64,000 nt of DNA from Balanoglossus misakiensis. Its lineage: Eukaryota; Animalia; Hemichordata. Positions within the stretch are counted from its first letter, which is position 1. Each line of letters starts with the position of its first letter. The DNA is taken from positions 19,701,028 through 19,765,027 of the forward strand of contig CM082576.2 in the NCBI GenBank assembly GCA_040954595.2. The letters are read 5' to 3'. The translations under genes were made by a program, and so were the position numbers. Of the stretch, positions 1,988 to 52,397 are shown piece by piece. Under the pieces are notes generated by a model. The model made no database searches. It saw only the letters and a program-made list of their open reading frames with translations, and was not told the origin of the DNA.

Positions 1988-4450
1988 TTCTGTGTTTCAT
2001 GCTATCCAATATGGGTAAGTAGGTAAAAAGTCACCCTAGGCCATTTGAAATTTTGCTGAAAAAATCTCGTCTCTTACATATGTACATTTGGTAAAAGGGA
2101 AATTTTAATCACGGAGTAGAACATATTCATAAAAAATATTTGAGGGAAAGAAGGAAGTTTTTCATAGCTTTGGTGCGTCAAATAGTAGAGAGGTTCCCTT
2201 GTTATCCTTAGACTCAAACTCAGAGTTTCCAATCTTTCAGTATTTTCATGATATTACTTTCCATCTTAGATTTGTTCATCTAAACAAACTGACTGATAGG
2301 TATACATGAACATTTTATTGACTAATGAATGTGCCTGTATGTTGCAATTTAAAGAAGTCAGATATTAAACGAGCGCCACACCTGTTTTAATCAGCCTCCA
2401 TATGGAGGATACACATCGCAGAGAGATGACAAACCCCATGCAAATTCAAGTAATATGGCTCAATGGTGCTGATTTTAAAGGATAGGTGGATGATTTGAAA
2501 AATGTTATTGTGGAAAAAGATGTGTAAAATTTGGCAGCTTGTGAGGCTTTAATTGTAAAATCTTTGAAATGTGTTTTACTCTTTAGGTCCAATTTTGTAT
2601 ATGTCAATATACCATTGGGACCAATGTGAAATTGTTCTAAACTCAGAAACTCAAGAAGGTACTGGTCAGATTGCTTTAGAAATTGGTGTGTATTTATGTT
2701 ATTGAGACTTTATACAGATTTTATTTTTCATTTTTGAAGTATATTTTTGGGGTGATTTTGGTCGTCATATACTCAGAAACCTCTACCCACATTTTTTTTA
2801 AAATTTGGTTTGCATGTTCTTAGGTGTGATTTTATGACAATTTAACAAACCCAGTGATGGAAGTGACAATATTGTTTTTTTTTTTTTTTGGCAATTTCTG
2901 CCATTTTTGTCTGATTGCTTTGCAATTTAGTTTGCAGTTTCTAGGGAATTCTTACTGTGGTGCACAAAATTCACAAAGGTGATTTACTATCCTCATGCGC
3001 TTTGTTGAACTGGCACCCTGTTGCAAAACAGACATTACAACACTCTTTGAATTGAATTCATAGCTACCAATTTTTCGGGGGTGTAGCACCTTTTTTATGC
3101 CTAAAACTTTGATCGAGAACTTCAAATTAAATGCAACCCTCCAAATATTTGCAATATTTCAGGTATAATGATTTAATTTTAAAGCATAAATTTTGATGTA
3201 TTCATAATCATTAAGAGAAACACATTTTGAAAATAGAATATTAATCACACTAGCAGTCATAATACTTTTGAATCATCACTAAAGAACATATAGAAAAATT
3301 AAACAGGTTTTAATTATTTATATTTGAACGCAAAGCGTAAATTCCCTTGTGCCATGGAATTGACAATCTGCAACTGGTGGGGTCCTTCTGCCAGTAAAAA
3401 GCATCAGATAAATTCTGCATGCTCATCACCGAGGCAATTTAGGTGTACTTTTGTACTTTGAGAACTGTCGGTTTTCGCAACTGAAACTATGTTCACAGGA
3501 CAGAGGAAAAACTAGAATGACAACAGCTATGTAAGCTAACAAAAGGAACACAGAGCATAGTTCTCCATACTCACATTTTAATGCAATAATTTTTGCTGAA
3601 ACTGGGGCGTCCGTGGGCAGGCAAAGGCAGTTCTAACTCGACTTGCAAATAAGGCCCATGTCTCTTGTTCGCTGAGATTGTCTGGTTCTAATAATAGCTG
3701 TAAGAACTTGATCATTGACCGAACTGTTGGTTCAATTTTGCAACATTTTATGATTTCAAGCTGTGCAATATTTGCAACTCAGTTTCAACTTTGGTTGGAG
3801 GGATGATGATGAAGCCATTTCACTGACAAAATAGCGCTACTGACTGATGTCAATGTTTGTTTACAGTCGAATGCATTGCCATCATAAAAATACATGTGAG
3901 AAATTTCTTATGTGTATGATACACACTTTTGTGCATGACTGCAAACTCTGTTACAGTTGTGAAATTCTAAGGGTTGAATTCATTGGGTAGAATTCATGTT
4001 TTTTGGATTCTTAAACAACCAGTCACGAAAGCTAAGTGGTTACCTCAGAGAAACTGTGTTAAATTTGGTCATCAATTGCTTTAAATCACACAAGACATTC
4101 CCAGAGCTAAAGTTACTGCAGCAGTCAGTTTCAACTCAGCTTGCAAATTGGGATCATGTCTTGTGTTCATCAAGACTGTCTGTAGTCGAGTTGACAGTCC
4201 TATGGGGTCAATGATGAACCTACAAATGTTCTTTCCAATGAAATTGTTATAAATCTAATATTCAGGATTTGCATTCATACCTTAAACAATATAACTGTAT
4301 TGCAAATATGGCAACTCTTCTAAGTTACATTGGAACACCTTCTCGCCACTGTTTGTGCCAAAATGGTGAATAAGCTTTCATTTTCAAGCCTTAACATAGG
4401 CACCCAAAACAAGACAACAGCATTTCAAATATGGCATTTTTTGTTCAACT

Positions 4451-5108
4451 CTTCTCATTTGCATAGTCCAAAATGGCCGCCAAACTCCACTAACATGTAA
4501 ATTTCCTATGGTCGTCTTAAATAGCGTGTAGTATCGCATTTGAAGGGTTTTCATCAATATGGGTACCTAAAACAATTTCAACGTGGTTGACATTGCAATG
4601 TTAGACAGCTGTTCTAATTTGCATAATCTAGAATGGCCGACAAACTTCTCTAACATGTAAATTTACTATGGTTGTCTTTAATAGTGTGTAATATCGCATT
4701 TGCAGGGTTTTCATCAATATGGGTACCTAAAACAATTTCAACGTCGTTGACATGGCAATATTAGACAGCTGTTCTAATTTGCATAATCCAAAATGGCCAC
4801 CAAACTCTTCTTAAATGTAAATTTCCCTGTTTTGTCTTATATGGTGCCTAAAATCGCATTTGCAGGGTTTTCATCAATATGGGTAACTAAAACAATTTCA
4901 GCATGGTTGACATGGCAATATTAGACAACTGTTCTAATTTGCATAATCCAAAATGGCTGACAAACTTCTCTAACATGTAAATTTCCCTGGTTTGTCTTAT
5001 ATGGTGTGTAATATCGCATTTTCACGGTTTTAATTAATATGGGTACCTAAAACAATTTCAACGTGGTTGACATGGCAATATTAGACAACTGTTCTAATTT
5101 GCATAATT
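4451..5108. repeat. Tandem repeat, 160-bp unit, about 4 copies
   Basis: The aatggc anchor recurs at ~4472, 4632, 4792 and 4952. Each unit contains atttgcat and caatatgggtacctaaaacaatttca. Confidence 0.9.
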
Positions 5109-5716
5109 CGAACACCTGCTGGATAATTTAATTTTTGCCCTTCTTGTCCCATGATTATATGTGTAATATCTCATTTTCAATGTGTTTACATGTATATATG
5201 CAGAATCCATTTCAAACTAAGTGGGCATATTGTAGCGCCAATCTTATTTCTTAATCCGCACCACAGAACTGATGCAAGGTTTAGGACTGGAAATGTATGT
5301 GGCCATTGGCCGACACCCCGGGCGAGAGGTCTCCAATTATTTTCAGCACGTAGTGTGCTTCCCGGTTGATAACATCAATATGTGTAAATGCCAAAAACCC
5401 GACCTATTGTAATACCAGTCAAATTTTCTTTTTCATTTACCATTTTTCTCTTGCATATGAAGGTTTTTCTTAAAGAGTACATACCCATATACATTTGTAT
5501 GGGAGCACACATCCCCATCCCCTGCCAACAATAATTGGACAACTTTATTCTTCTTATACTTCTTTTTAGTCTAAACATTCATATAGAGAAGGCAACATGT
5601 TCTTGAAGCTGCTGACTATGGAAATATGATGAAGTACATTTTCCTAGTTGTACATGTACAGTATGATAGGCCCAATGTACCAATTGGAGATGTGTGCCTT
5701 ACAGGCAACATACATG

Positions 5717-8700
5717 TAGCTCTGCATGGGCTGGTTAATCAATGTTGACGCAAAGGTTGACCCTACCAAACACTCAAAATTAATGGGCACGACACTGGCC
5801 ACTAGCTCTGCATGGCCTGGTTAATCAATGTTGACGCAAAGGTTGACCCCACCAAACACTCAAAATTGATGGGCACGACACTGGCCACTAGCTCTGCATG
5901 GCCTGGTTAATCAATGTTGACGCAAAGGTTGACCCCACCAAACACTCAAAATTGATGGGCACGACACTGGCCACTAGCTCTGCATGGCCTGGTTAATCAA
6001 TGTTGACGCAAAGGTTGACCCCACCAAACACTCAAAATTGATGGGCACGACACTGGCCACTAGCTCTGCATGGCCTGGTTAATCAATGTTGACGCAAAGG
6101 TTGACCCCACCAAACACTCAAAATTGATGGGCACGACACTGGCCACTAGCTCTGCATGGCCTGGTTAATCAATGTTGACGCAAAGGTTGACCCCACCAAA
6201 CACTCAAAATTGATGGGCACGACACTGGCCACTAGCTCTGCATGGCCTGGTTAATCAATGTTGACGCAAAGGTTGACCCCACCAAACACTCAAAATTGAT
6301 GGGCACGACACTGGCCACTAGCTCTGCATGGCCTGGTTAATCAATGTTGACGCAAAGGTTGACCCCACCAAACACTCAAAATTGATGGGCACGACACTGG
6401 CCACTAGCTCTGCATGGCCTGGTTAATCAATGTTGACGCAAAGGTTGACCCCACCAAACACTCAAAATTGATGGGCACGACACTGGCCACTAGCTCTGCA
6501 TGGCCTGGTTAATCAATGTTGACGCAAAGGTTGACCCCACCAAACACTCAAAATTGATGGGCACGACACTGGCCACTAGCTCTGCATGGCCTGGCTAATC
6601 AAGGTTGACGCAAAGGTTGACCCCACCAAACACTCAAAATTGATGGGCACGACACTGGCCCCTAGCTCTGCATGGCCTGGCTAATCAAGGTTGACGCAAA
6701 GGTTGACCCCACCAAACACTCAAAATTAATGGGCACGACACTGGCCACTAGCTCTGCATGGCCTGGTTAATCAATGTTGACGCAAAGGTTGACCCCACCA
6801 AACACTCAAAATTGATGGGCACGACACTGGCCACTAGCTCTGCATGGCCTGGTTAATCAATGTTGACGCAAAGGTTGACCCCACCAAACACTCAAAATTG
6901 ATGGGCACGACACTGGCCACTAGCTCTGCATGGCCTGGTTAATCAATGTTGATGCAAAGGTTGACCCCACCAAACACTCAAAATTGATGGGCACGACACT
7001 GGCCACTAGCTCTGCATGGCCTGGTTAATCAATGTTGACGCAAAGGTTGACCCCACCAAACACTCAAAATTGATGGGCACGACACTGGCCACTAGCTCTG
7101 CATGGCCTGGTTAATCAATGTTGACGCAAAGGTTGACCCCACCAAACACTCAAAATTGATGGGCACGACACTGGCCACTAGCTCTGCATGGCCTGGTTAA
7201 TCAATGTTGACGCAAAGTTGACCCCACCAAACACTCAAAATTGATGGGCACGACACTGGCCACTAGCTCTGCATGGCCTGGTTAATCAATGTTGACGCAA
7301 AGGTTGACCCCACCAAACACTCAAAATTGATGGGCACGACACTGGCCACTAGCTCTGCATGGCCTGGTAAATCAATGTTGACGCAAAGGTTGACCCCACC
7401 AAACACTCAAAATTGATGGGCACGACACTGGCCACTAGCTCTGCATGGCCTGGTTAATCAATGTTGACGCAAAGGTTGACCCCACCAAACACTCAAAATT
7501 AATGGGCACGACACTGGCCACTAGCTCTGCATGGCCTGGTTAATCAATGTTGACGCAAAGGTTGACCCCACCAAACACTCAAAATTGATGGGCACGACAC
7601 TGGCCCCTAGCTCTGCATGGCCTGGCTAATCAAGGTTGACGCAAAGGTTGACCCCACCAAACACTCAAAATTAATGGGCGCGACACTGGCCACTAGCTCT
7701 GGCCTGGCTCATCAATGTTGACGCAAAGGTTGACCCCACCAAACACTCAAAATTGATGGGCACGACACTGGCCACTAGCTCTGGCCTGGCTAATCAAGGT
7801 TGACGCAAGGGTTGACCCCACCAAACACTCAAAATTAATGGGCGCAACACTGGCCACTAAGCTCTGGCCTGGCTAATCAATGTTGACGCAGGGGTTGACC
7901 CCACCAAACACTCAAAATTGATGGGCACGACACTGGCCACTAGCTCTGCATGGCCTGGTTAATCAATGTTGACGCAAAGGTTGACCCCACCAAACACTCA
8001 AAATTGATGGGCACGACACTGGCCACTAGCTCTGCATGGCCTGGTTAATCAATGTTGACGCAAAGGTTGACCCCACCAAACACTCAAAATTGATGGGCAC
8101 GACACTGGCCACTAGCTCTGCATGGCCTGGTTAATCAATGTTGACGCAAAGGTTGACCCCACCAAACACTCAAAATTGATGGGCACGACACTGGCCACTA
8201 GCTCTGCATGGCCTGGTTAATCAATGTTGACGCAAAGGTTGACCCCACCAAACACTCAAAATTAATGGGCACGACACTGGCCACTAGCTCTGCATGGCCT
8301 GGTTAATCAATGTTGACGCAAAGGTTGACCCCACCAAACACTCAAAATTGATGGGCACGACACTGGCCACTAGCTCTGCATGGCCTGGCTAATCAAGGTT
8401 GACGCAAAGGTTGACCCCACCAAACACTCAAAATTGATGGGCACGACACTGGCCCCTAGCTCTGCATGGCCTGGCTAATCAAGGTTGACGCAAAGGTTGA
8501 CCCCACCAAACACTCAAAATTAATGGGCACGACACTGGCCACTAGCTCTGCATGGCCTGGTTAATCAATGTTGACGCAAAGGTTGACCCCACCAAACACT
8601 CAAAATTGATGGGCACGACACTGGCCACTAGCTCTGCATGGCCTGGTTAATCAATGTTGACGCAAAGGTTGACCCCACCAAACACTCAAAATTGATGGGC

Positions 8701-10913
8701 ACGACACTGGCCACTAGCTCTGCATGGCCTGGTTAATCAATGTTGACGCAAAGGTTGACCCCACCAAACACTCAAAATTGATGGGCACGACACTGGCCAC
8801 TAGCTCTGCATGGCCTGGTTAATCAATGTTGACGCAAAGGTTGACCCCACCAAACACTCAAAATTGATGGGCACGACACTGGCCACTAGCTCTGCATGGC
8901 CTGGTTAATCAATGTTGACGCAAAGGTTGACCCCACCAAACACTCAAAATTGATGGGCACGACACTGGCCACTAGCTCTGCATGGCCTGGTTAATCAATG
9001 TTGCCGCAAAGTTGACCCCACCAAACACTCAAAATTGATGGGCACGACACTGGCCACTAGCTCTGCATGGCCTGGTTAATCAATGTTGACGCAAAGGTTG
9101 ACCCCACCAAACACTCAAAATTGATGGGCACGACACTGGCCACTAGCTCTGCATGGCCTGGTTAATCAATGTTGACGCAAAGGTTGACCCCACCAAACAC
9201 TCAAAATTGATGGGCACGACACTGGCCACTAGCTCTGCATGGCCTGGTTAATCAATGTTGACGCAAAGGTTGACCCCACCAAACACTCAAAATTAATGGG
9301 CACGACACTGGCCACTAGCTCTGCATGGCCTGGTTAATCAATGTTGACGCAAAGGTTGACCCCACCAAACACTCAAAATTGATGGGCACGACACTGGCCC
9401 CTAGCTCTGCATGGCCTGGCTAATCAAGGTTGACGCAAAGGTTGACCCCACCAAACACTCAAAATTAATGGGCGCGACACTGGCCACTAGCTCTGGCCTG
9501 GCTCATCAATGTTGACGCAAAGGTTGACCCCACCAAACACTCAAAATTGATGGGCACGACACTGGCCACTAGCTCTGGCCTGGCTAATCAAGGTTGACGC
9601 AAGGGTTGACCCCACCAAACACTCAAAATTAATGGGCGCAACACTGGCCACTAAGCTCTGGCCTGGCTAATCAATGTTGACGCAGGGGTTGACCCCACCA
9701 AACACTCATAATTGATGGGCACGACACTGGCCACTAGCTCTGGCCTGGCTAATCAAGGTTGACGCAAGGGTTGACCCCACCAAACACTCAAAATTTATGG
9801 GCACGACACTGGCCACTAAGCTCTGGCCTGGTTAATCAATGTTGACGCAAAGGTTGACCCCACCAAACACTCAAAATTAATGGGCACGACACTGGCCACT
9901 AAGCTCTGGCCTGGTTAATCAATGTTGACGCAAAGGTTGACCCCACCAAACAAAATTAATGGGCACGACACTGGCCACTAAGCTCTGGCCTGGTTAATCA
10001 ATGTTGACGCAAAGGTTGACCCCACCAAACACACAAAATTAATGGGCACGACACTGGCCACTAGCTCTGCATGGCCTGGTTTATCAATGTTGACGCAAAG
10101 GTTGACCCCACCAAACACTCAAAATTGATGAGCACGACACTGGCCACTAGCTCTGCATGGCCTGATTAATCAATGTTGACGCAAAGGTTGACCCCACCAA
10201 ACACTCAAAATTAATGGGCACGACACTGGCCACTAGCTCTGCATGGCCTGGTTAATCAATGTTGACGCAAAGGTTGACCCCACCAAACACTCAAAATTAA
10301 TGGGCACGACACTGGCCACTAGCTCTGCATGGCCTGGTTTATCAATGTTGACGCAAAGGTTGACCCCACCAAACACTCAAAATTGATGGGCACGACACTG
10401 GCCACTAGCTCTGCATGGCCTGGTTAATCAATGTTGACGCAAAGGTTGACCCCACCAAACACTCAAAATTAATGGGCACGACACTGGCCACTAGCTCTGC
10501 ATGGCCTGGTTTATCAATGTTGACGCAAAGGTTGACCCCACCAAACACTCAAAATTGATGGGCACGACACTGGCCACTAGCTCTGCATGGCCTGGTTAAT
10601 CAATGTTGACGCAAAGGTTGACCCCACCAAACACTCAAAATTAATGGGCACGACACTGGCCACTAAGCTCTGGCCTGGCTAATCCAGGTTGACGCAAGGG
10701 TTAACCCCACCAAACACTCAAAATTAATGGGCGCGACACTGGCCACTAAGCTCTGGCCTGGCTAATCAATGTTGACGCAGGGGTTGACCCCACCAAACAC
10801 TCATAATTGATGGGCACGACACTGGCCACTAGCTCTGGCCTGGCTAATCAAGGTTGACGCAAGGGTTGACCCCACCAAACACTCAAAATTTATGGGCACG
10901 ACACTGGCCACTA
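5717..10913. repeat. 86-bp satellite array, left part (about 60 units)
   Basis: Unit tagctctgcatggcctggttaatcaatgttgacgcaaaggttgaccccaccaaacactcaaaattgatgggcacgacactggccac, with starts at 6061 and 6147. Minor 82-83-bp variants lack gcat. Confidence 0.98.
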
Positions 10914-10920
10914 CCCTTAC

Positions 10921-11450
10921 CAAAATCGGGTGCACCCGAAAGGCACCCGAAAGAACACACCCCGGGTGCACCTTTGGTGGCACCCGAAACACACCCCTCA
11001 GAACACACCCGAAACCACCTTAAATTGGTCACTTTAGGTGTGTTTCGGGTGTACAAAACAGGTGCATTATAGGTGCACCCAAAAGGCACCCGAAATAGAA
11101 CACACCCGAGGTGCACCTTAGGTGGCACCTAAAACACACCCGTATGATATGGTATGGATGCACCCGAAACGCACCCGGAACAGCATACTCCGGGTGCACT
11201 TTAGGTGGCACCTAAAACACACCCGTATGATATGGTATGGATGCACCCGAAACGCACCCGGAACAGCATACTCCGGGTGCACTTTAGGTGGCACCTAAAA
11301 CACACCCATATGATATACTATAGTGCACCTGGAGTATGCTGTTCCGGGTGCGTTTCGGGTGCATCCATAATATGTATATGGATGCACCTGAAACGCACCC
11401 GGAACAGCATACTCCAGGTGCACTTAAGGTGGCACCGAAAACACACCTGT
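10921..11450. repeat. Left subterminal repeat region of the EnSpm element (GGTGCACC palindromes, GGCACCYRAAACACACCC motifs, 75-bp tandem units)
   Basis: Repeated gggtgcaccc and ggcacctaaaacacaccc. The same motif is inverted at the right end. Confidence 0.85.
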
Positions 11451-12615
11451 GATACAGTGTTGGTGTATTATTGGCACGCACCTGCAGAAGATCTGATAAA
11501 GGGACTATTGAAAAATGAATATTTTATATGGTACTCTTTATTTACCCCTGAGTTGTCAATCCTTCAATGACAAGGATGACATGAGCAACCTTGTACACAC
11601 CAGAAACAACATGAAATGGTCATTACATTTGAAAAAGTTAAACTCTGCTTTTGCATGGTATATATAAATATAATGATATAAATATATAGTTATCTGTTCT
11701 GATTGTCCAAACAATCCTTTACACACAGTAAAAAGGTAAATATAATGCTTGATGGCTCTTGATAAACTGCGTTATGTGTAGTATATATAAATATAAATGA
11801 TATAAATATATAGTTATAAAACTTCTGATTGTGATGTAAATCTTCACACAATGGAAAAGATGCTTTGAGTAAAACCTTGGCTCACACTTTCACAAGAATG
11901 TAATACGGGATGGAACTGAAAAATGTAGCAAAATATTGACCCGTGGAAACTGCTACATTTGAAATATAATTATGACTAAAATACATTAAAGTATTCCCTA
12001 ATATTTAAAAAATTATGACATATTTTCATGTTGTTACAATGAACTTTAAACTACTTAAAACTCACTACTATTACACACTATTATTCTCCCTCACTTTTAA
12101 GAACTTGAGTATCCCTTTCAAATAACAAATCATCTTATTATTATTATGTTGTGCAAAATTGACAATGTTTACTAAGACTTTAAAACATTGGTAAATGTAT
12201 AAGGAAACTCCTGTGACAAAAAGACAATTTCTACTTCTAAGTGTGGACAGTCTGTGCCTTAAAATCTGTGCCTTAAAATTTATAACTACAAAAATGAATC
12301 ATAACAATAAAAAAATAAAAAAAAAACATTTCACTGTGTTTTAGATGCATGGTAACATACAAGAAATACATGAGAAGTTTACATGGTAAAATAGATTAGC
12401 AAAATTGTTTTATAGAGTATACCATTGCACAACTGGCAGACAACTAATATGACAAAGCAACTTAGACCTGGCATTGTTTTTAATTGGCAAGATAGAAGCT
12501 AGAACAAGCTGTAGGCTGAACGAAGGAGTACTGAACAAGTCATGACTGACCTTGATACAAACAATTTTGTATCTTCTGAGTACTGTTGGAGGCTAGAAAT
12601 GTCAGGAGCTCCTGC

Positions 12616-15600
12616 CTAATTATGTTTTGGCAATATTCTACTTCGTTTGGCCGATATCATATTGCCAATAGACTCATTAATCATGGAATCTGTGGGTCCA
12701 TTAGGTACAGAATGTTCCTGGGAGAATGCTGGAAGAAAACGAGAGAACTAAATTCAAACAATTGAAAAGAAATGAATTAAAGAGGTTGAGAACACAGTAT
12801 GGAGAATATGCTGAATAACATGCTGCAAAGTCATCAGTCATACTCAAATCTCTTAAGCTGAAAGATGACACATTTTCATCAACTTTCAACATCACATTAA
12901 CATAAGTATACATACCTGTATACATGTAGAAAGGCAAATTTTCATCAATGTCATCTGTCATCAATGAAATGAACATATGATTTTAGGAAGACCATACTTT
13001 AGAATGTAATATACTGTATATCTATACATTCATATCAATAAATAACTCACCAAGTATTGAATTTCTGATATCTGGGTCAATGCCCAGTCTTCCATTCATG
13101 CCCTTGACATTCATTGAGACTAGCTCTTCATCAGTGTAGAACACCCGCACCAAAAATCGGGCACATGCAGTGGCCGACTTATTTTTTGCTTTCTGAACTG
13201 CTATTGTTTTCACCTTTGCAGGCAGGAACACCTGATCACCTGGTGTCAATGGTACATACTGGCAAATTAAAAACAGACATGAAAAAGAAATTGAATTATA
13301 AAAAGTGGACAGGCAGAAAGAAGGCAACTTAACCTAACTCAATTGTTCCAAAGACTGTTGTTGACAGCAGAGCCAATAAGTACCACCCGCTTGACAGTAA
13401 GGAGTAGTTTGTAATAGTTCAAGTGAAAATACCTTATGGATAGCTGCCAATTCTTTGTTAATCTTCCCTGGTTTTGGTGGAGATGCGTTATCTATAATTT
13501 CCTCTTCAACGCCTGTAAACATATTTCATTAAAATGGATGACTATGATTTGCATATAGTGAAAAACAAAAGGTACAGACTGTCTTCAATAACATATTGAA
13601 GTATTAAAGTCAAGATAGATTTATTTCACAGGGAAATTCCAGACATGCTTAAAAATTGGATACAGCTTTTCTGAGCAAAAGGACTCACCTGTTCTTTCTG
13701 AAACAGCCAATTTCACTTTCAGGTCAGCATTCTCTCTATTCAGTGTTTTATTTTCTTTCTCCAACATTGTAATTTTGCTGATGTACTTCGGGCATTTCAC
13801 ACATTGCTGGAGTTCTTGCCGAGGACACTGCCGGAATTCTGGCCGAGGACACTTGCCCCCCTGCGTTGGATGCCCTTTTTCATTTACAGGACCAGGTATG
13901 TCATGATCACGTCTGTGGGAGGCGTCATCTGTGTCACTGTCACTGCCATCGCCATCGGACATAGACATTGGTATTTCTTCTTGAGGATCATCAAAACTGA
14001 AAAAAGGGAACAAATCACAATGAATACAACATCAATAACTTTTAACTTTTTATTTAAATTATGCTGATAAATTACCTGTCTCTTGAGATATTGAATTTTC
14101 ACAGTTTTAAGACATGTTGAACTTCACAGGGATCATATTTACTAGAGGGTAAATTCACTAACTTAGTGATATTTTCCACCTTACCTCACATCGAAGAAGC
14201 CACTGTCTGCCATGCTTTGTATTAAAGCGCTGTCTCTTTGAATATTTGCCTTTCTCTGCTCTTCCCTCTCCTTTCTTCTTGAAGCTTCATCTACTTGGTC
14301 AACTTGTTTCTGTGTCACACTGGTCACCTCTTGGTTTGTAGATTTTGACTTCTTGGTTTTTTTTTTACCTTTTGCAGCTGCTTGGTCTGGTACTTTTCGT
14401 TTCTTACTGTTTCCGCTAATTGCTTTTTCTAAATTGGCCTTTATTTTCTGAAGTTCCTCCTTATCATCTGACAAGAAATTAATTTTGAACGTACAGTGAA
14501 TGTAAATGAATTTAATCATCAGTGGCAAGGATGGGAAATTTCATTTGGATGCTAAAATGTCATGACTTGACCAACACAGGAAAATAAAAATAAATATCAA
14601 TGTTGTTTATGTGACATCAGTTCTGAAATAATGAACCTGTGATCCCAAATCTCAGCAAACCAATATGCAGGAAAAGCTGGCTATGCTATTATAATGTACT
14701 TTGGTTCTGCTTTTTCCAACTCTGTACTTTTTTGAAATGTTGATTTTATACAGATGTTCAGAACACCATAATTTTACTCCCCTGTCAACTCCTTTTTACA
14801 AACTTATTTTCCAATATATCGGATGAATCTGTTGTGTTTTTGCACTCATGCTAATGTCAAAAACATATTTGAAAATAAGATTGAATAATATATACATTTA
14901 TGTTGTGTACTTACAGCTTTTGCCTTGCACTAGGCATGGATAGTGCTTCTTATCCAGTGGCCAAATGGCTTGTGTTATGCCTCCAACTGTGTTCACTTCC
15001 TCAGATTTGACAATAAGGAGTGCATTGTCTTCAACAAATTGAACTAGCTGAAATTCTGAAAATGATTGTATAAAACGGACACATTTATTTAAGAATGGCT
15101 GTACATGAACATGTTTAAAACCAACATTTGTTGTTTTTTTCACTCTGGACTGGATAACACGATAGCATGCAAGACTTGCATTGACTATGCAGTGTACATG
15201 CCAATCTTCATTTAAGCTACATGTAAAGCAATGATTTAAATCCTGTTTAAATCGACAGATTGGTGATGTAAATTACTGTTTTGCTGCTGAAAACAAAATC
15301 AGAAAAGGCGCCTACCTTTTTGACATCACTAATTGCCCCTAAAAATCGATATCATGGGTGGTCTGCAGGGTACAAGTGTTCTGCAGACGCGCGGACACAT
15401 GACATGACCTCCAAGAAAAGTTGCTCTGCCGTTGTCAAGTTTAGATAAGGTGTTGCGACCGGAACGCTGAGCTGCGTTATTTGTTGCAATTTCTGCGTGT
15501 TGCTGGCTATGACGCTAGGACGCCTGTCTAAAGATAGCTGGTGTACTGAATGCAAGGGGCAACGCGTACTGTTTGGCGTTTTACGATGTTTCAATCGTCT

Positions 15601-15755
15601 ATACTGGTAAAATGTGATCGTGACTCGCGGTTTTCAAGGAGTTTCCAGGAGAAAATTTTGAATTTCTAGGAGATTCCAGGAGCATGAAACTGCATAATCA
15701 TCTTACCTTGGTCACCGAAGCTTGTCTTAGCTGTCCTTGAACGCTTAGTAGGCAT
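12616..15755 (-). CDS. Transposon accessory protein with C-terminal BEN domain, 7 exons, 393 aa
   Basis: Exons 15755-15707, 15055-14915, 14467-14185, 13996-13689, 13512-13433, 13258-13051, 12728-12616. All introns are GT-AG with matching phases, total 1182 nt, no internal stops. C-terminus SATACARFLVRVFYTDEELVSMNVKGMNGRLGIDPDIRNSILAF...MINESIGNMISAKR matches the BEN pattern. A coiled coil (LEKENKTLNRENADLKVKL) lies upstream. Confidence 0.85.
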
Positions 15756-16211
15756 CACGGAACTGTAAACAGGAAAATTGAAACGATTGAGGAGCTTTCA
15801 AGGAGACGTACAATGGCGTTTTCTGATTTATCTGGACGTTTTCATGTTTGGCGCGTGATCGTGACCTAGATTAGTAGATAGTGAACTCTAAACCGATTGG
15901 ATGAATTTGACCTCTCTGTAAATTTTCGATCGCTGAAGAGTGTCTCCCTCTTTGAATTTCAGATCTGTCGTGCTATATCTGTTCAGATGAGCAATATTTT
16001 ATTTTCTCTTCAATAATTCGAAGCATATCAAGTGTAAACGACAACTTCAAATGCATAAATAAGGATAATTTACCCCCGCCTTTACCCAGCAACACTTGCG
16101 ATAAACAAGCGCCATATTGGAAAGGTCAACTTTAGTACACTGACTGACGATCAAGGACGTCGCATCTTTCACTTACTGTGCACTGAGCTTAGCCACTCGG
16201 CAATTGGAAAA
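15756..16211. promoter_or_regulatory. Putative bidirectional promoter between the BEN gene and the transposase
   Basis: 456 bp between head-to-head start codons. CpG-rich, with an inverted CCAAT (gattgg ~15895), YY1-like aatggcg (~15812) and gccatatt (~16111). Confidence 0.5.
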
Positions 16212-19200
16212 ATGGCAGAAAGACAAGAAGAGAAGTCAAGAAGAAAGAGGGGAGTTTACATGAGTTACCTCAATGATCCTTCGATTCCAATTCCGCGTAC
16301 GACAGCAAAAAGATGGTCATCAAACTCCGGTGAAGGCCCCAGTACTAGTAGTGCCGGCGACTTATCCTTTGTCTCGGAAGGCCCGCGCCCCAGTACTAGT
16401 GGTGCCGGCGACTTATCCTTTGTCTCGGAAGGCCCCAGTACTAGTAGTGCCGGCGACTTATCCTTTGTCTCGGACATCGACTCAAGCAGTCCACCGACTC
16501 CAGGCAATTCAAGCGAGTGTGGGCTGACCGACCTTTTCGATACACAGGACAACACATGTGCTTTCGACGACGATACAACTGAAACGGGACGTACTACCGG
16601 TATGCAACCAATGGACGCTGAATTGGATACGGATGCAATCCACCATTTTGGATCTGGTTCTGACTTGTGGGGTAAATACCTCGACGATTTTGATGAAGAT
16701 ATGGAAAATGAAGCGTCTGATACTGGTGAAGTACTTAGCGATTCTAGTGAAGATATTTCAACACCTAACGACAAAGAAGGTGACGATCAACGTCTATACG
16801 CTGGAGCTCCCCTTACAGTCGGCATTACTATGCTCCTTATTATGTCATTTGCTATTCGACATAATCTAACTGGTTCTGCATTGACGGACTTACTAACTTT
16901 AATCGAGTTGCATTGCATCACACCTAATTTGTGTAGAAAGAGTATGAAAATGTTCCATGAGTTCTTCAGAGCATTAAAGTCTCCAATTGAAAGACATTAT
17001 TTCTGTACGCATTGCCATGGGTATATTGGACGAGAAGTGGGCCCCGTTTGCCCTGTTTGCTCTAAAAGCACAGTTGAGAAGAAGTCAACAAGCTACTTTA
17101 TTGTGTTACCAGTGCTCAGCCAACTTCAAAGTATACTTTCAAGTAAGTCAATCTTTTATCATTTTTATATGTTTCTTTTTTGTGCAAGAATGCAATCTGT
17201 ATGTTGTTTGTTTTTCTTTGTTGTTGTTGTTTTTTTTGCTCATGAATGCTACAACATACATAAATGTAATACCAATCATAATTGTAATCATTGCTTAAAA
17301 AAGTATAATTATTGGCATGCAGGCACTCTTGTCCTTGATTGTTTAGTGGCATTTTATCAAAGTTCCATGAATGTTGGCATATCTTGTACCCATTTATTGT
17401 CACTTTGTATATTTTGTCTTGCCTTACAAATTCATTTCTTTTATTGATAGGAGATGGTATGTTGGAGAAAATGGCTTATCGGTCAAAGAGGAACAAGCAA
17501 TCAAATGGGCACATAAGTGATGTTGTGGATGGTTTGCTGTACAAAAAGCACTTCAGTGAAGATGGATTTTTCCATGGCACATCAACTCAGCAGAAACAGA
17601 CTGAACTTCATCTATCGTTCCAAATGAATTTTGATGGTGTTTCACTATTCCGTTCATCCAAATTCTCAATATGGCCAGTGTATTACACTTTAAATGAACT
17701 TTCACCCACAGAGAGGTATGCATTAATATTATAATAAACTTTGAAGTTATTGAATTTCATTGTACAAGTCTAAACTCTAATGTACCGGGACATGATGAAG
17801 ATGTAGTGTTAGGAACTATACAAAGAATGTTCATAATGTTGAATTCCATTTAATGTTACATTTGACAAGTAGACATGTGGTTGTAAAATATTAAGTACCA
17901 GTACCACAATTGACTTGTTTGAGTAATAATAATTGACACTTTTTTTCCTTAGATTTCAGAGAAAGAACAGAATATTTGCTGGAATTTGGTTTGGGTTCAG
18001 GAAACCCGAATGTGGAACATTCCTGAAGCCTTTTGCATTGTCATTTATAGATATGTATGAAAAAGGTATGTCTGTCTGTCTTTCCTTTGTATTGTTATAG
18101 ACACAGTCCCTCCACACACGGTCGAGAAACAGAGTGCATTCTATTGTCTAGATGCACGTTGCGATTATGTTACAATGTACTTTGTTTATTCGGACGGTGA
18201 GATTATCGGAACATAGTTTATTTGCCTACCTGGCTTGAGGGACATTCCTGAAGTTGGCCTCATCGTCATCTTCACATGAACTTTCAAGCTGAGGATGAGG
18301 ATAAGGCTTACTTCACGTACGTGTTTGAGGGACTGTGTTCAATGTAAGGAAGAGACGTAGAATTCATTTGCATCGGATCAGCATATGCAATGATGTCATT
18401 TTCCCCCAGGATTTTCATGATTTATTTAGCACATGTGTGCAAAATTTCTGTGTACTGTTGTTGTTATTGATGTAGAAATGTCGTTTAAGATAAGTCTCTA
18501 CACCAACACATCGATTTGTGACTCTTATTCTACCCCTGACCTTGTCGATAAGAACGCGAACCAGGAAGACATTATAGAAAGTGACCCAGCTCGTTGAGTG
18601 TGTGATCGAAGGCAGTGCATTTGTAGAGCATCCTTTCTGTTTGACGGCAATCACTGTGCTGATGTAGTAAATTGTTTTTTTTCCTATATCTCTCAAATTT
18701 AGGCATGCAAGTAGAAATACCAGCAGACAACAAAAGAATAACAGTAAAGGCCATATTATTAAGTGCCGTGTTTGATGCCCCAGCCAGAGGTTTGTTTATG
18801 GAATGCAACCAGTTCAATGGTATGTTTGGCTGCCCATATTGCCTATCTCCAGGTGAAACTGTGAAGACAAGTGAAAGAGGTCATATGCGTGCCTACCCCT
18901 TTGATAGAGAGAACCCTGCTTCTGGACATGGAGAAGAACGGACTCACAAATCAACACTTCAGTTTGCAAAGGAAGCTGCCAATGCCAGAAAAACTGGAAA
19001 GATATCTGCTGTTATGGGTGTAAAAAACATAAGTTGGTTTTTGTATGTCCCAAAGTTTGATATGATTAATGGCATAGGGTCTGATTACATGCATTGTGTC
19101 TGCCTAGGAATTATGAAGATGCTGCTAACTTTATGGACTGACAAAGCTCATAAAGCCCAACCATGGTACATTGGTAATAAATTGCATGTACTTGACAAAA

Positions 19201-20306
19201 ATCTACTGCATATAAAACCCCCCCACATGATTAGCAGAGCTCCAAGAGGTTTGTCAAATGAACTGGCCCACTGGAAGGCATCAGAGTTCAGGAGTTTTCT
19301 TCTATATTACTCAATCCCAATTTTATGGAAAATACTGCCCGAGGATTACTTCCACCATTTCTGTTTGTTAGTAGAGGGCATATATTTATTACTACAGACA
19401 TCAATTTCATCAGGAGACTTAAAGAAGTCATCAGGCCTTCTCAGGCATTTTTCATTCAAGATTGAAAGTTTATATGGGAAGCGATACCAAACTTCCAACA
19501 TGCACATGTTGCTTCACTTTGTACATCGAGTTCGATGTTTAGGCCCGCTATGGGCAATGTCATGCTTCTTTTATGAAGACTGCAATGGTCAACTTAGAGA
19601 CCTCTGTCATGGTACTCAAAGCATCCAAGAACAAATTGTAACAGCTGTTTGCATCCAACAACAAATCCCACGACTCGAATCCAATCTTACAAGTGGTTCT
19701 GCCGCTGAAGATTTTTATGACAAAATTACTGGAGGTCGCAAAGTTGGTCACAACAAAACCAAAATTGGGAGTGGTCTCTTTGTTGTTGGAGCAGTTGTTG
19801 ACAGACAGGTACCAGAGTCAGAACGCACATGTCTTGAAAGATCCGTTGGACCTGTGAAGTCAATCTCTACATTCAAGCGCATTGCTATTAACAACACAGT
19901 GTTAATACATAGTAAGGATTATAAACCAGTTACGCGGAGAAACAGCTACACCATTCAGTTTACAGAACAACTTGGGAGCGTTGCATATGGACAAGTTAGA
20001 TATTATGCCGTGTGCAAACGTTTTTGTCCAAGTGAAATCTTGTGTAACAAATCATGTGAATGTCAAACACCCTTGTATGTTGCCATTGTGGATAAATTCA
20101 AAGTCAGGAATGACCTTAAGGCATCCCTTCTGCAGGATGATATTACACAGACAACTCTAAATCACATCATTGCCGTAGATAAGGATGATAAAGAGCTTGT
20201 GTGCGTAGACCTAAGAAGAATTGTACAGTGTTGCATTTTTGTAGATTGTAACAGAAGTGAATGTTGCTTTGTTTGCCTATGCCCCAACACTGTTGAAAAG
20301 GATTAA
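16212..20306 (+). CDS. EnSpm/CACTA-type DDE transposase, 4 exons, 970 aa
   Basis: Exons 16212-17142, 17451-17715, 17953-18065, 18703-20306. GT-AG, in phase, 2913 nt. Motifs HYFCTHC..CPVC, MNFDGVSLFRSSKFSIWPVY, IFAGIWFGFRKP, FDAPARG, GMFGCPYC, DYMHCVCLG, WKASEFRSFLLYY, NMHMLLH, GPLWAMSCFFYED. Confidence 0.93.
18101..18338. mobile_element. Small MITE-like inverted repeat inside transposase intron 3
   Basis: acacagtccctccacacacg at 18101 versus cgtgtttgagggactgtgt ending at 18338. Confidence 0.5.
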
Positions 20307-20814
20307 ACTTTGTCAAATTGGGGATATTTGTTATGAATGTATGTTTTTGGCGATTAAGACCGACAGCCAGATTAATATAGAATAAGCCATTAATACATCA
20401 TGAAAACTTCATTCAACCATAATAAAGATATTACCTATGTACTGTACATGATCTGTCTCATTGTTATGAATATTGTTTTATGTGTGGGTCAAACATCCAT
20501 CACCATGGCTCAAGAATATTACTGTTCTCATCCTCCTTAGTGTCTGGGCCTATTTCCAACAGGAAAGGCTGCAGTCCTTACCTAGCACTCACTATTACTT
20601 TCAAATTAGGATTATTGTAGTGGACAAACCCATAAGGGCTTTTTGGGAGGGGGGGGGGGGTACTGGACTGTGTCTCAGTATATTCCAGCGATAGAACACG
20701 CAAAAAGATGGATGAACACTTCGGCCGCTGAGCATACATGTAGGGTCTGTTAGCAATCTGATTAAAATCCGATGTGTTACGCGGCTTTCCTCTATTTACC
20801 TACCTCTGCTTCTT

Positions 20815-21570
20815 CGTGTTGGGTGCCTTCATCACTATTCCTGAAGTGAAAAAGTTGCTAAGTCTAAAGCGGGTGTCTTTTGGGTGCCTTCCTGAAGTGA
20901 AAAAGTTTCTAAGTCTAAAGTGGGTGTGTTTTGGGTGCCTTCCCCATGTGGATAAGTTTCTAAGTCTAAAGCGGGTGTGTTTTGGGTGCCTTCCCAATGT
21001 GGATAAGTTTCTAAGTCTAAAGCGGGTGTGTTTTGGGTGCCTTCCCAATGTGGATAAGTTTCTAAGTCTAAAGCGGGTGTGTTTTGGGTGCCTTCCCAAT
21101 GTGGATAAGTTTTTAAGTCTAAAGCGGGTGTGTTTTGGGTGCCTTCCCAATGTGGATAAGTTTCTAAGTCTAAAGCGGGTGTGTTTTGGGTGCCTTCCCA
21201 ATGTGGATAAGTTGCAAAGTTGAAAGCGGGTGTGTTTTGGGTGCCTTCCCAATGTGGATAAGTTGCGAAGTCGAAAGCGGGTGTGTTTTGGGTGCCTTCC
21301 CGATGTGAAAAACTTGCTAAGTCTAAAGCGGGTGTGTTCTTGGTGCCTTAACGGCAAGTGCTGATTTCAGGAGGTGTATTTCGGGTGCACCCGTAAGACA
21401 CCTATTCAGTTCATGTGGTAGGGGTGGATTTCGGGTGGGTTAGACCACCCACCCAAAACCCACCCCATCTTACAGTGGTGTGTTTTAGGTAGGTTACGGG
21501 TGGGTCTAAGTGCAATTGGTGTGTTTTGGGTGTATTTTAGGTGCACCCGAGGTGCACCCGAGCACTCGGA
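20815..21570. repeat. Right subterminal repeat region: 51-bp tandem repeat (about 10 copies) plus GGTGCACC palindromes
   Basis: Unit gggtgtgttttgggtgccttcccaatgtggataagtttctaagtctaaagc. Its core is the reverse complement of the left-end motif. Confidence 0.9.
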
Positions 21571-21583
21571 AATTTGGTAAGGG

Positions 21584-22012
21584 TAAGCTCTGGCCTGGTT
21601 AATCAATGTTGACGCAAAGGTTGACCCCACCAAACACTCAAAATTAATGGGCACGACACTGGCCACTAGCTCTGCATGGCCTGGTTTATCAATGTTGACG
21701 CAAAGGTTGACCCCACCAAACACTCAAAATTGATGGGCACGACACTGGCCACTAGCTCTGCATGGCCTGGTTAATCAATGTTGACGCAAAGGTTGACCCC
21801 ACCAAACACTCAAAATTACTGGGCACAACACTGGCCACTAGCTCTGCATGGCCTGGTTAATCAATGTTGACGCAAAGGTTGACCCCACCAAACACTCAAA
21901 ATTAATGGGCACGACACTGGCCACTAGCTCTGCATGGCCTGGTTAATCAATGTTGACGCAAAGGTTGACCCCACCAAACACTCAAAATTAATGGGCACGA
22001 CACTGGCCACTA
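21584..22012. repeat. 86-bp satellite array, right part (about 5 units)
   Basis: The same unit resumes exactly at the transposon end and finishes at ggccac-tacatgta. Confidence 0.97.
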
Positions 22013-22029
22013 CATGTATTTGTGATATT

Positions 22030-29200: not shown

Positions 29201-29502
29201 TGGAAAAAGGGCAGCAAGAGAGATACTAAATCAACAGTAGTGTCTACGTTTTAGCTGTACATATTTCTGTTGACATTTCAGTTGTAGATAGTTACATACC
29301 TGTACAAGTTATTCCATCACCAGTGAAACCAGTTTTGCAAGTGCATTCATATCCTGGTACAAGATTCCTGCAAGTGGCATTTGGGTGACAGTCATCCAGA
29401 CCAAGACGACATTCATGTGCATCTAGAAAACAAAAATTCTTGCAATGTCTTTAACTGACCACCAAATAAAACTATGGGATCTTCATACATATCACCAGTT
29501 AA

Positions 29503-29685
29503 AGGTATACGGTCACCTATGGAAAATTAGCTATAGTTACCATGGCAAAAGGAGATCTAGCCAATCACAGATTTTCAGTGGGTGGCACATGCAAAAAAGA
29601 GCGCCACCATATGTTCTTTAGAACTCTCATATACTCCATTTCAGCCATATATGGGCGTTTGTAAATTGGAGGTGACTGTATACCT
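29503..29685. mobile_element. Kolobok-like MITE with TTAA TSD
   Basis: ttaa-AGGTATACGGTCACC ... GGTGACTGTATACCT-ttaa. Confidence 0.75.
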
Positions 29686-32097: not shown

Positions 32098-32308
32098 ACT
32101 GTAAACTGAGTTGTTTTCACGACAGGAAATTTTCGCGATATTAAAAGAGGCGACTGTTACGTGAGGACGAATTTTCGAGTTCTCGTATTTCACTAACTGC
32201 ATCATTATCTCCAAAAACATTTTACACAACTTTTTATTTTAACGTTTTTTTGACCAGCACATGTTTTGCAGAAATTTACTGCTCGCGAAAATAACACGTT
32301 TTGCAGTA
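32098..32308. mobile_element. Tc1/mariner-type MITE (TA-CTGTAAA...TTTGCAG-TA)
   Basis: Degenerate TIRs and internal ttttcgcg / cgcgaaaa motifs. Same family style as 41996-42189. Confidence 0.55.
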
Positions 32309-32323
32309 TATTTCGAATGCATG

Positions 32324-32511
32324 TGTAATGTCCCCGACTATGAATCAAATAGACTTATTCACCGTTGTATGGCTTCTAACATCTCGCCATGTTAACTTTA
32401 TTAACAACAACACAACTACTGCGCATGGGCAGGTAACGTACCGCGCATGGCATGTACAGAATGCAGCTGGCCATACTGAAAGTATATTTTGTTATATGTC
32501 TGGATATTACA
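32324..32511 (-). repeat. 3' LTR (188 bp)
   Basis: tgtaatgtccccgac...ctggatattaca, matching 39970-40157. Confidence 0.97.
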
Positions 32512-32899
32512 TTTCTCCTTTTCTTTTGAGATAGCAGAGTTGTTTCAATTTCTCTTGAAGATTGTCATTTCGTACTGAGTCTCATTTTTCTTGTGGTTCA
32601 CGGTCAGTGTTCCTGTTTGCGGTTTGATCATGAATATAATGTATGTTTTCAACAATCCTTGTGTTTCCAAATTTCTAAATATAAATTGGCCTTGATAGCT
32701 GCTCAACAAATAACATTAATTTCAATTTCAAAAATATCAAATTGAATAAAGATATGTCCATCGGTATAAATGTTCCTGTCTTTTTTTTTTCATGGAATTT
32801 TCACTTTCAATACGAATTCGAAATAGAATAAAATATGGAACAATAAACTCGAACATTGTTTTTGTCATTGTCAGTTTTCCATAGCCTAGCTATCGCCTG

Positions 32900-35300: not shown

Positions 35301-35467
35301 AATATCAAATTGAATAAAGGTATGTCCATCGGTATAAATGTTCCTGTCTTTTTTTTTTCATGCAATTTTCACTTTCAATACGAATTCGAAATAGAATAAA
35401 ATATGGAACAATAAACTCGAACATTGTTTTTGTCATTGTCAGTTTTCCATAGCCTAGCTATCGCCTG

Positions 35468-39799: not shown

Positions 39800-39950
39800 G
39801 TAGCACTGATCGACACTATATGTACGTCACACTCACGTTCGGCAGATCTGGCGGTTACGGATGTGTAATTTCTGGGTCGGCTCTCGCTGGGAAATGGTTT
39901 GAGTCTGTCACCATGCATTTATGGTTGCTCCGCTTTGCGTTCTGTGGATC

Positions 39951-39968
39951 GTTTGATCCTCGTCGCCA
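39951..39968 (-). other. Primer-binding site, complementary to the 3' end of tRNA-Ser(GCU)
   Basis: Minus strand reads TGGCGACGAGGAT one base after the LTR. Eukaryotic tRNA-Ser(GCU) ends ATCCTCGTCG-CCA. Confidence 0.75.
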
Positions 39969-39969
39969 T

Positions 39970-52373: not shown

Positions 52374-52397
52374 TACATACATACATACATACATACA

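What the first reader, a model, noticed from the sequence alone, without database searches (positions are those of the whole stretch)
12616..15755. Transposon-borne 7-exon BEN-domain gene, head-to-head with an intact EnSpm transposase
Seen: an uninterrupted spliced ORF that the ORF track shows only in fragments. It has a short beta-rich N-terminal domain (FQLVQFVEDNALLIV..AIWPLDKKHYPC), a basic NLS-like stretch, an acidic stretch, a coiled coil and a C-terminal BEN-like domain. Known: BEN domains bind DNA and chromatin (BEND3, BANP, Insensitive) and occur in some viruses and transposons; plant CACTA elements use a second protein, TnpA, that binds subterminal repeats. Inference: this is a two-component animal CACTA system in which the BEN protein plays the TnpA role or steers the element to heterochromatin.
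Basis: partly seen in the sequence, partly recalled or inferred. Interest (0 to 1): 0.8.

Follow-up and report, generated by a model that had tools for sequence, protein, structure and literature searches.

The report
Animal transposon with Tudor-BEN helper gene
This is an intact 10.7-kb cut-and-paste transposon of a marine invertebrate that carries, back to back with its transposase gene, a conserved seven-exon second gene predicted to encode a DNA-binding (BEN-type) protein, which likely grips the repeat-studded ends of the element to help it jump.

Summary
Observation confirmed. Seven GT-AG exons (15755 to 12616, minus strand) give an open 393-aa frame that is 46% identical, across all seven exons, to a RefSeq acorn-worm protein. 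The gene lies 456 bp head-to-head with an open 970-aa EnSpm-type transposase, inside a 10,670-bp element with CCC ends, a TA duplication and inward-facing subterminal repeats, inserted in an 86-bp satellite. The C-terminal domain is very probably BEN (family profile to NACC1 E 1.8e-14; the window's own clade scores only weakly). The N-terminal barrel is Tudor-like and also matches bracovirus proteins and a chordate BEN-protein cluster. The pairing is conserved: 26 of 31 related loci long enough to judge carry the partner gene in the same position, under purifying selection; one is a complete element. A TnpA-like end-binding role is the best reading (0.5) but is inferred; binding and splicing were not shown. 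Satellite or heterochromatin targeting found no support. Ten literature searches found no description of the pairing, but this scan has reported it before on other DNA (sponge, clam, shark, sea urchin). Verdict: new variant of a known kind.

The parts
10914..21583 (.). Complete EnSpm/TRC-type DNA transposon, 10,670 bp
   Evidence: CCC...GGG ends, terminal inverted repeat 11 of 11 then 12 of 13 bases
10912..10913 (+). Left copy of the 2-bp target duplication (TA)
   Evidence: seven satellite units show the matching empty site
21584..21585 (+). Right copy of the 2-bp target duplication (TA)
10914..11450 (+). Left terminal repeat and subterminal array of the GCACCYRAAA motif (12 sites, 11 on +), including an 83-bp tandem repeat
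20800..21583 (-). Right subterminal array of the same motif (11 sites, all on -), including a 51-bp tandem repeat, and right terminal repeat
15707..15755 (-). Partner gene exon 1 (start codon)
   Evidence: 13 of 17 residues identical to P0075
14915..15055 (-). Partner gene exon 2: Tudor-like five-stranded barrel
14185..14467 (-). Partner gene exon 3: helix after the barrel, basic stretch, charged helix
13689..13996 (-). Partner gene exon 4: acidic stretch, conserved CxxC, predicted coiled coil
13433..13512 (-). Partner gene exon 5: linker before BEN
13051..13258 (-). Partner gene exon 6: first two thirds of the BEN domain
12616..12728 (-). Partner gene exon 7: end of BEN with the predicted recognition helix, stop codon
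15756..16211 (.). 456-bp spacer between the two start codons; likely shared bidirectional promoter
   Evidence: CpG observed/expected 1.03 over 15300-16700 against 0.36 and 0.34 in the gene bodies
16212..20306 (+). Four-exon EnSpm-type transposase, 970 aa, open frame
   Evidence: D372, D461, E728, C480/C483, H704/H708 invariant in 11 of 11 aligned proteins; relatives carry PF02992 above cut-off
5717..10913 (+). 86-bp satellite, about 61 copies, left of the insertion (host site, not part of the element)
21586..22012 (+). 86-bp satellite, about 5 copies, right of the insertion

Best explanation
The gene is the second, conserved gene of an intact animal EnSpm/TRC transposon, and its Tudor-like, coiled-coil and BEN-type protein likely binds the repeated motif at both ends of the element and so helps the transposase find and pair them. 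Shown: the element's ends and duplication, two open spliced frames facing away from a shared CpG-rich spacer, 23 copies of one motif at the ends, and the same gene pair in many related elements under purifying selection. Predicted: the BEN and Tudor-like folds, and oligomers through the CxxC and coiled coil. Inferred by analogy with maize TnpA and the Harbinger Myb-like protein: co-expression from the spacer, nuclear import by the basic stretch, cooperative BEN binding along the subterminal arrays, recruitment of the transposase, and perhaps control of the element's own chromatin.
For: Gene lies within the element ends. BEN: profile of window exon 6 plus 9 related exons hits NACC1 BEN at E 1.8e-14, and 8 of 9 PDB sequences listed are BEN proteins; P0075 hits PF10523 at E 2.2e-4; Atlas neighbours of exon 6 carry PF10523 (15% and 25% of members). 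Tudor-like barrel: model pLDDT 93.5, best matches ARID4A Tudor Z 6.1 and ARID4B Z 5.8; 22 of 23 weak PDB sequence hits are Tudor proteins. Conservation: barrel exon in 29 and BEN exon in 11 of 80 loci, all on the opposite strand upstream of the transposase; 26 of 31 loci with 3.5 kb or more upstream (11 of 16 clusters at 70%). L036 is a complete 11,541-bp element with CCC ends, TA duplication, both exons and its own motif at both ends. dN 0.07-0.33 against dS 0.59 to saturation in 11 of 11 exon pairs; BEN and transposase distances correlate (rho 0.45, p 0.018, n 7). End motif: 23 of 25 window matches lie in the element ends, 22 of the 23 facing inward; 11 of 17 related right ends have an enriched 8-mer that differs by lineage. 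BEN domains bind 6-10 bp through a C-terminal helix and gain selectivity by oligomers (PMC11472053, passages). TnpA and the Harbinger Myb-like protein are the two-protein precedents (PMC1636069, PMC9710019, passages).
Against: Nothing here shows that BEN, not the transposase (which has an N-terminal four-cysteine motif), reads the end motif; motif, BEN and transposase all follow the same lineages. 6 of 17 related right ends had no enriched 8-mer, among them L054, which has both partner exons. BEN identity of the window's own clade is weak by sequence: exon 6 alone has no BEN hit in Pfam or PDB, a clade-only profile reaches BEND6 at E 0.22, P0075 is under Pfam's cut-off (21.8 against 23.2 bits), and the half-domain model matched BANP at only Z 3.3. 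The window's barrel exon scores E 3.8 against the profile of the related barrel exons (hhalign 26%), and barrel and transposase distances do not correlate (rho 0.15, p 0.19). 5 of 31 long loci show neither exon.
Confidence: 0.5

Rival explanations
1. The protein is a chromatin or transcription regulator of the element, not part of the transposition complex: BEN binds element DNA and the Tudor-like barrel reads or recruits chromatin factors, keeping the shared promoter open (anti-silencing) or damping the transposase. This can hold together with the best reading, as it does for TnpA.
For: Barrel resembles chromatin Tudor domains of ARID4, KDM4, PHF1. The spacer is CpG-rich and the gene bodies CpG-poor. 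TnpA reactivates a methylated promoter and represses an active one (PMC1636069, passage). An unchecked note of this scan reports a BEN gene in a Tc1-type element of the same genome, which would suit a general regulator better than a transposase-specific partner.
Against: The repeated motif lies at the element ends, not in the spacer. No methyl-lysine pocket was tested; a shared fold shows no function.
Confidence: 0.25
2. A host BEN-family gene was captured once and is carried as cargo that benefits the element or the host in some way unrelated to its own ends.
For: The barrel matches a chordate 'BEN domain-containing protein 6' cluster (TM 0.77) and an arthropod DUF4806 cluster (TM 0.87); some related BEN exons are close to NACC1. 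Direction of transfer was not tested.
Against: Fixed position and orientation, a conserved phase-1 intron after the barrel and within BEN, purifying selection and co-divergence with transposases only 35-45% alike are not what passive cargo shows.
Confidence: 0.13
3. The protein steers insertion into satellite DNA or heterochromatin.
For: This copy sits in an 86-bp satellite, and a Tudor-like domain could read a chromatin mark.
Against: The satellite unit has no match to the end motif (best score 0.2, P 0.67). 0 of 24 right flanks of related elements begin in a tandem array (short contigs under-sample satellites). The two bases after 29 related right ends are varied (TA in 11). One insertion is one event.
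Confidence: 0.07
4. The C-terminal domain is not a true BEN domain but another helical domain with a BEN-like pattern.
For: Weak direct scores for the window's clade.
Against: Several independent weak lines agree on BEN; UniRef names the relative P0081 a BEN domain-containing protein; a phmmer hit of exon 6 (P0079) passes the PF10523 cut-off.
Confidence: 0.05

Closest known systems
Animal TRC / EnSpm elements (SmTRC1 of Schistosoma, Aedes and Tribolium TRCs; PMC1636069, abstract, sections 6 and 8, passages read)
   Same: CCC terminal core, 2-bp target duplication, Transposase_21-type transposase, internal tandem repeats, a proposed second DNA-binding protein.
   Different: SmTRC1's second protein comes from alternative splicing of one transcription unit and had no detectable relatives; here it is a separate divergent seven-exon gene with a Tudor-like barrel, coiled coil and BEN domain.
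Plant En/Spm (CACTA): TnpD plus TnpA (PMC1636069 passages; subterminal binding by TnpA recalled)
   Same: Related transposase, two proteins, oriented subterminal repeats at both ends.
   Different: No CACTA ends, 2-bp not 3-bp duplication, no TnpA-type Pfam hit, partner not a splice form.
PIF/Harbinger two-gene transposons (Harbinger3_DR; PMC9710019, passages read)
   Same: A 300-400-aa second gene with a small sequence-specific DNA-binding domain beside the transposase; there it binds a 9-bp subterminal motif and carries the transposase to the nucleus.
   Different: Other superfamily and other domain (Myb/MADF, not BEN); binding and interaction are shown there and only inferred here.
Host single-BEN proteins (NACC1, BEND6, BANP, Insensitive; PMC11472053 and PMC8887127, passages read)
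   Same: BEN-type domain at the C-terminus, coiled coil upstream (BANP); a chordate BEND6-named cluster shares the N-terminal barrel.
   Different: Those are fixed host genes; this one lies in a mobile element, has no BTB domain, and its target motif is unknown.
Bracovirus BEN family (PMC4574769, passages read)
   Same: Spliced genes with a conserved 68-aa N-terminal domain (PHA02737) and a C-terminal BEN domain; bracovirus proteins are the top viral structural matches of the barrel (TM 0.67-0.75, E 0.02-0.2).
   Different: Not in a transposon, up to 1200 aa; that the matched bracovirus proteins are the BEN ones was not shown here.

Membership tests
Animal EnSpm/TRC (CMC superfamily) | Transposase_21-type transposase with intact catalytic residues | tested here: met
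   Open 970 aa; 40-43% identical over exon 4 to proteins with PF02992 above cut-off; D372, D461, E728, CxxC and HxxxH invariant in 11 of 11 (their catalytic role is recalled). Single exons alone stayed under Pfam cut-offs.
Animal EnSpm/TRC (CMC superfamily) | CCC terminal core and short terminal inverted repeats | tested here: met
   criterion from PMC1636069 section 6
Animal EnSpm/TRC (CMC superfamily) | 2-bp target duplication | tested here: met
   TA on both sides; also in L036
Animal EnSpm/TRC (CMC superfamily) | Several dispersed copies, present mobility | not testable with these tools
   No genome held; no second copy in the window
Plant CACTA / TnpA system | CACTA ends with 3-bp duplication | tested here: not met
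   CCC ends, 2-bp duplication
Plant CACTA / TnpA system | Second protein made by alternative splicing of the transposase transcript | tested here: not met
   Separate gene on the opposite strand
Plant CACTA / TnpA system | Second protein binds subterminal repeats and is needed for transposition | not testable with these tools
   Oriented repeats are present; binding needs a bench test
BEN domain (PF10523) | Score above Pfam's cut-off | tested here: inconclusive
   Domain is split over two exons and could be scanned only in parts (no hit); full-length relative P0075 21.8 bits against 23.2, E 2.2e-4
BEN domain (PF10523) | Profile similarity to solved BEN domains | tested here: met
   NACC1 E 1.8e-14, BEND6 1.6e-4; 4.3e-10 and 4.2e-5 with a wider alignment; clade-only profile BEND6 E 0.22
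BEN domain (PF10523) | Five-helix fold with C-terminal recognition helix | tested here: inconclusive
   Only exon 6 was folded (pLDDT 70); BANP, NACC1 and Bsg25A at ranks 1, 3, 7 with Z 3.3, 2.9, 2.2
BEN domain (PF10523) | Sequence-specific DNA binding | not testable with these tools
   needs EMSA or SELEX
Tudor domain (Royal family) | Five-stranded barrel of Tudor topology | tested here: met
   Model of the P0075 barrel pLDDT 93.5; ARID4A Z 6.1, rmsd 2.2 over 50; ARID4B Z 5.8; JMJD2C Z 4.6; Z under 8 may mean a common arrangement only
Tudor domain (Royal family) | Aromatic cage that reads methylated lysine or arginine | not tested
   no pocket analysis done
PIF/Harbinger | Harbinger-type transposase and Myb/MADF second gene | tested here: not met
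   Transposase is Transposase_21-type; no Myb/MADF hit on any exon or on P0075

The most novel reading that the evidence does not exclude
A Tudor-like plus BEN gene is the ancient, obligatory second gene of a large animal EnSpm lineage, the functional counterpart of plant TnpA, and this transposon gene family is the reservoir from which host single-BEN factors (BEND5/6-like, the NACC BEN domain, insect DUF4806 proteins) and the bracovirus BEN family were recruited.
Probability: 0.25. Interest if true: 0.8.

Novelty: new variant of a known kind. Interest (0 to 1): 0.52.

Why it matters
Animal EnSpm elements are usually treated as one-gene elements; the paper that defined them expected a TnpA-like helper but found none that was conserved. 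A spliced, fast-evolving Tudor-BEN gene fills that gap and is easy to miss in ORF tracks. An element with both frames open and both ends intact makes the helper's role directly testable, and each family offers a natural pair of BEN domain and candidate motif. If the structural links to chordate BEN proteins and bracovirus BEN genes reflect descent, the patchy spread of BEN factors in animals and their viruses would have a transposon origin, as with the domesticated Myb-like genes of Harbinger.

Tried and rejected
No whole genome is held, so copy number, dN/dS within this family and insertion bias could not be measured. No RNA holder was listed: no evidence either way on splicing or expression. 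Word-indexed searches with exon 6 found nothing and with the BEN alignment 3 proteins. No relative in viral contigs (0 of 25 candidates). A complex prediction of the barrel exon with transposase exon 4 gave no answer (score 0.00, alignments not used). The half-BEN model against viral structures gave only insignificant hits, one a bracovirus BEN fragment (E 5.4). Alignment A4 misplaced the fragments and was dropped. phmmer of P0075 and the three-sequence profile against PDB gave no clear BEN hit (NACC1 E 1.4). A first list of right ends was circular because it asked for TA; the unbiased repeat shows varied flanks. A 10-mer seen twice near the spacer recurred in only 1 of 10 related spacers. The genomic context of P0075 was not seen, so it is not shown to lie beside a transposase. 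The original BEN paper (Abhiman 2008) was not held; Repbase and Dfam entries could not be searched; no supplements were read.
Full report
Observation. Reading the minus strand gave seven exons, 15755-15707, 15055-14915, 14467-14185, 13996-13689, 13512-13433, 13258-13051 and 12728-12616. All six introns are GT-AG and the joined frame has 393 codons and one terminal stop. An exhaustive phmmer search with exon 6 returned 15 proteins at E up to 0.001; the best is P0075, RefSeq XP_070545635.1 of the acorn worm Ptychodera flava, automatically named 'titin homolog'. It aligns to the model over residues 1-387 at 46% identity (E 1e-121), with matches in every exon and no gap at any of the six junctions. 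The gene model is therefore not chance. Splicing was not seen directly.

The element. The gene lies within a 10,670-bp element, 10914-21583, that starts with CCC and ends with GGG, has an 11-bp perfect terminal repeat and is flanked by TA on both sides. It interrupts an 86-bp satellite (about 61 and 5 copies) at a variant unit junction found 7 more times in the array. On the plus strand, 456 bp from the partner's start codon, four exons give an open 970-aa transposase. Its large exon has 71 relatives at E up to 1e-20 from molluscs, corals, a brachiopod, a hemichordate and others; three full-length ones tested carry Transposase_21 above cut-off. D372, D461, E728, C480/C483 and H704/H708 are invariant in 11 of 11 aligned proteins; reading them as the catalytic triad and the CMC signature is recalled knowledge. 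CCC ends with 2-bp duplications are the marks of animal TRC/EnSpm elements (PMC1636069, section 6). The motif GCACCYRAAA occurs 25 times in the window, 23 times in the element ends, 22 of these facing inward. The spacer region has CpG o/e 1.03 against 0.36 and 0.34 in the two gene bodies, which suits a shared unmethylated promoter (inference). The host is probably a hemichordate or near relative (inferred from P0075; an unchecked note on this genome says the same).

The BEN domain. The domain is split over exons 6 and 7 and could be scanned only in parts; neither part hit PF10523, and exon 6 alone found no BEN structure. Indirect lines agree. A profile grown from exon 6 alone found matching exons in 11 of 80 related loci; an alignment of exon 6 with 9 of them hits NACC1 BEN at E 1.8e-14, then BEND6, BANP, Insensitive and BEND3, 8 of 9 listed sequences being BEN proteins. 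P0075 hits PF10523 at E 2.2e-4 but 1.4 bits under the cut-off, and P0079 passes it. Atlas neighbours of exon 6 carry PF10523. Against: the strong NACC1 score owes much to other lineages in the alignment, since a profile of the window's own clade reaches BEND6 only at E 0.22, and the exon-6 model matched BANP, NACC1 and Bsg25A at Z 3.3, 2.9 and 2.2. I put BEN at about 0.93.

The N-terminal barrel. The P0075 barrel, aligned with window exon 2 and 17 related exons, folds as five strands and a helix at pLDDT 93.5; its best matches are the Tudor domains of ARID4A (Z 6.1, rmsd 2.2 over 50), ARID4B (5.8) and JMJD2C (4.6), with MbtH-like proteins between them, so the scores are modest. 22 of 23 weak PDB sequence hits of that alignment are Tudor proteins. 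The Atlas's own model of P0075, independent of my alignment, matches a chordate cluster named BEN domain-containing protein 6 (TM 0.77; 84% of members carry BEN), an arthropod DUF4806 cluster (TM 0.87) and ARID4B (0.61); DUF4806 is described as a BEN subtype (10.1101/2023.12.06.570431, passage). Among viral structures, bracovirus proteins rank first, fourth and sixteenth (TM 0.67-0.75, E 0.02-0.2), and bracovirus BEN proteins are reported to have a conserved 68-aa N-terminal domain (PMC4574769, passage). That the matched proteins are the BEN ones is likely but not shown.

Conservation of the pair. One metagenome scan confirmed 432 transposase relatives and kept the best 80; they are probably host DNA, much of it coral (inferred from named relatives). 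A barrel-exon profile, seeded with five exons picked by eye, finds 29 loci; with the BEN exon, 30 loci in 11 clusters at 70% transposase identity carry at least one partner exon. Every hit is on the opposite strand upstream of the transposase, none elsewhere in 494 kb searched on both strands. Of 31 loci with at least 3.5 kb upstream of the DYMH motif, 26 are positive (16 of 21 clusters at 90%, 11 of 16 at 70%). Of the five negatives, L073 has a similar exon by eye and L050 is interrupted by a reverse-transcriptase insertion; L042, L047 and L076 are unexplained. 10 of the 11 BEN loci also have the barrel exon. Three loci with 7 kb or more upstream lack the BEN exon: two leave the element at a nested repeat and in L018 the gene appears to run off the fetched DNA. 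Positives are spread over the transposase tree, but most of the window's nearest relatives lie on contigs too short to judge. L036 is a complete 11,541-bp element with the same anatomy and a different end motif. The barrel exon ends in a phase-1 donor after its last strand in the window and in 27 of 29 loci by pattern, the other two having GT at the same offset; this supports homology despite a weak profile score for the window's exon (E 3.8). In 11 of 11 exon pairs dN (0.07-0.33) is far below dS (0.59 to saturated). BEN distances follow transposase distances (rho 0.67, p 0.0002, n 10; rho 0.45, p 0.018, n 7), barrel distances do not (rho 0.15, p 0.19, n 11).

How it most likely works. BEN domains insert a C-terminal helix in the major groove over 6-10 bp, and oligomers sharpen their choice of sites (PMC11472053, passages). 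Here a predicted BEN domain behind a coiled coil faces two arrays of a 10-bp oriented motif. In maize, TnpA and TnpD are both needed and TnpD stabilises TnpA on DNA (PMC1636069, passage); in Harbinger a Myb-like second protein binds a subterminal motif and takes the transposase to the nucleus (PMC9710019, passage). The best reading is the same division of labour: the partner coats the ends and recruits or positions the transposase (0.5). All these steps are inferred. A purely regulatory or anti-silencing role (0.25) is the main rival and may coexist. Cargo (0.13) fits the fixed arrangement badly. Targeting to satellite or heterochromatin (0.07) found no support: no motif in the satellite (P 0.67) and 0 of 24 related flanks starting in a tandem array.

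Novelty. Ten full-text searches listed no paper describing a BEN gene in an EnSpm element; I saw listings and abstract starts for these, passages of PMC5704228, PMC4574769, PMC11472053, PMC9710019, PMC8887127, PMC10789644 and one preprint, and the abstract, sections 6 and 8 and passages of PMC1636069. Subscription papers, Repbase, Dfam, the original BEN paper and all supplements were not seen and may mention it. This scan has reported the same pairing on other DNA (sponge, clam, shark, sea urchin); those notes are unchecked and were used as leads only. The element is a member of the animal TRC/EnSpm kind, works most like the TnpA and Harbinger two-protein systems, and is not a plant-type CACTA. 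I file it as a new variant of a known kind, interest 0.52. The boldest reading left open is that this transposon gene family is the source of host single-BEN factors and bracovirus BEN genes (0.25; interest 0.8); no rooted tree was made, so the direction is untested.

Noticed in passing
window 5710-22020: The whole 86-bp array is bracketed by the 8-mer TACATGTA on both sides (18 copies of that 8-mer in the window), as if the array were itself an insertion with an 8-bp duplication; the transposon landed at the TA of a variant unit junction seen 7 more times.
   Followed up: partly
window 32900-39826 (minus): Gypsy-type LTR retrotransposon with a 1452-aa open frame (RT, RNase H, integrase) and a tandem partial duplication of its 3' part.
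   Followed up: partly
window 46986-62584: Long nested inverted repeats (arms about 46986-48267 and 58887-60650; others 49012-49449 and 57108-57542) enclosing a smaller element 49452-51777 with long inverted ends and a DDE_3 (Tc1-type) fragment at 50272-50703, and a 309-bp tandem array.
   Followed up: no
window about 28800-45000 (minus): Exons of a large host gene with LamG-like, ephrin-receptor-like cysteine repeats and EGF-like exons (SVEP1/SCUBE-like; label recalled).
   Followed up: partly
window 13760-13860 (minus): A CPR...CxxC motif just before the coiled coil is kept in P0075, P0081, P0082 (CxxC) and P0118; it could be a zinc clasp for dimer formation (inference). In the window a 24-bp duplication adds a second copy of part of it.
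   Followed up: partly
L036:124-11664: Complete related element (CCC ends, TA duplication, CTGCAGA/CAGATCTG repeats at both ends, barrel and BEN exons): a second natural test system.
   Followed up: yes
L068:3807, L069:2553, L070:866: A nested element with CAGGG start and AGGGCTCC repeats interrupts the partner gene; two contigs leave the transposon there, which explains their missing BEN exon.
   Followed up: partly
L053, L066 last exons; L068, L062 right ends: Two lineages with similar predicted recognition helices have end motifs that share a T[GA]ACAA core, while lineages with other helices have CTGCA-type or GCACC-type motifs (by eye, few points, cannot be separated from shared ancestry).
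   Followed up: partly
window 4446-5107: 160-bp tandem repeat, about 4 copies, unrelated to the element apart from weak matches to the end-motif matrix.
   Followed up: no
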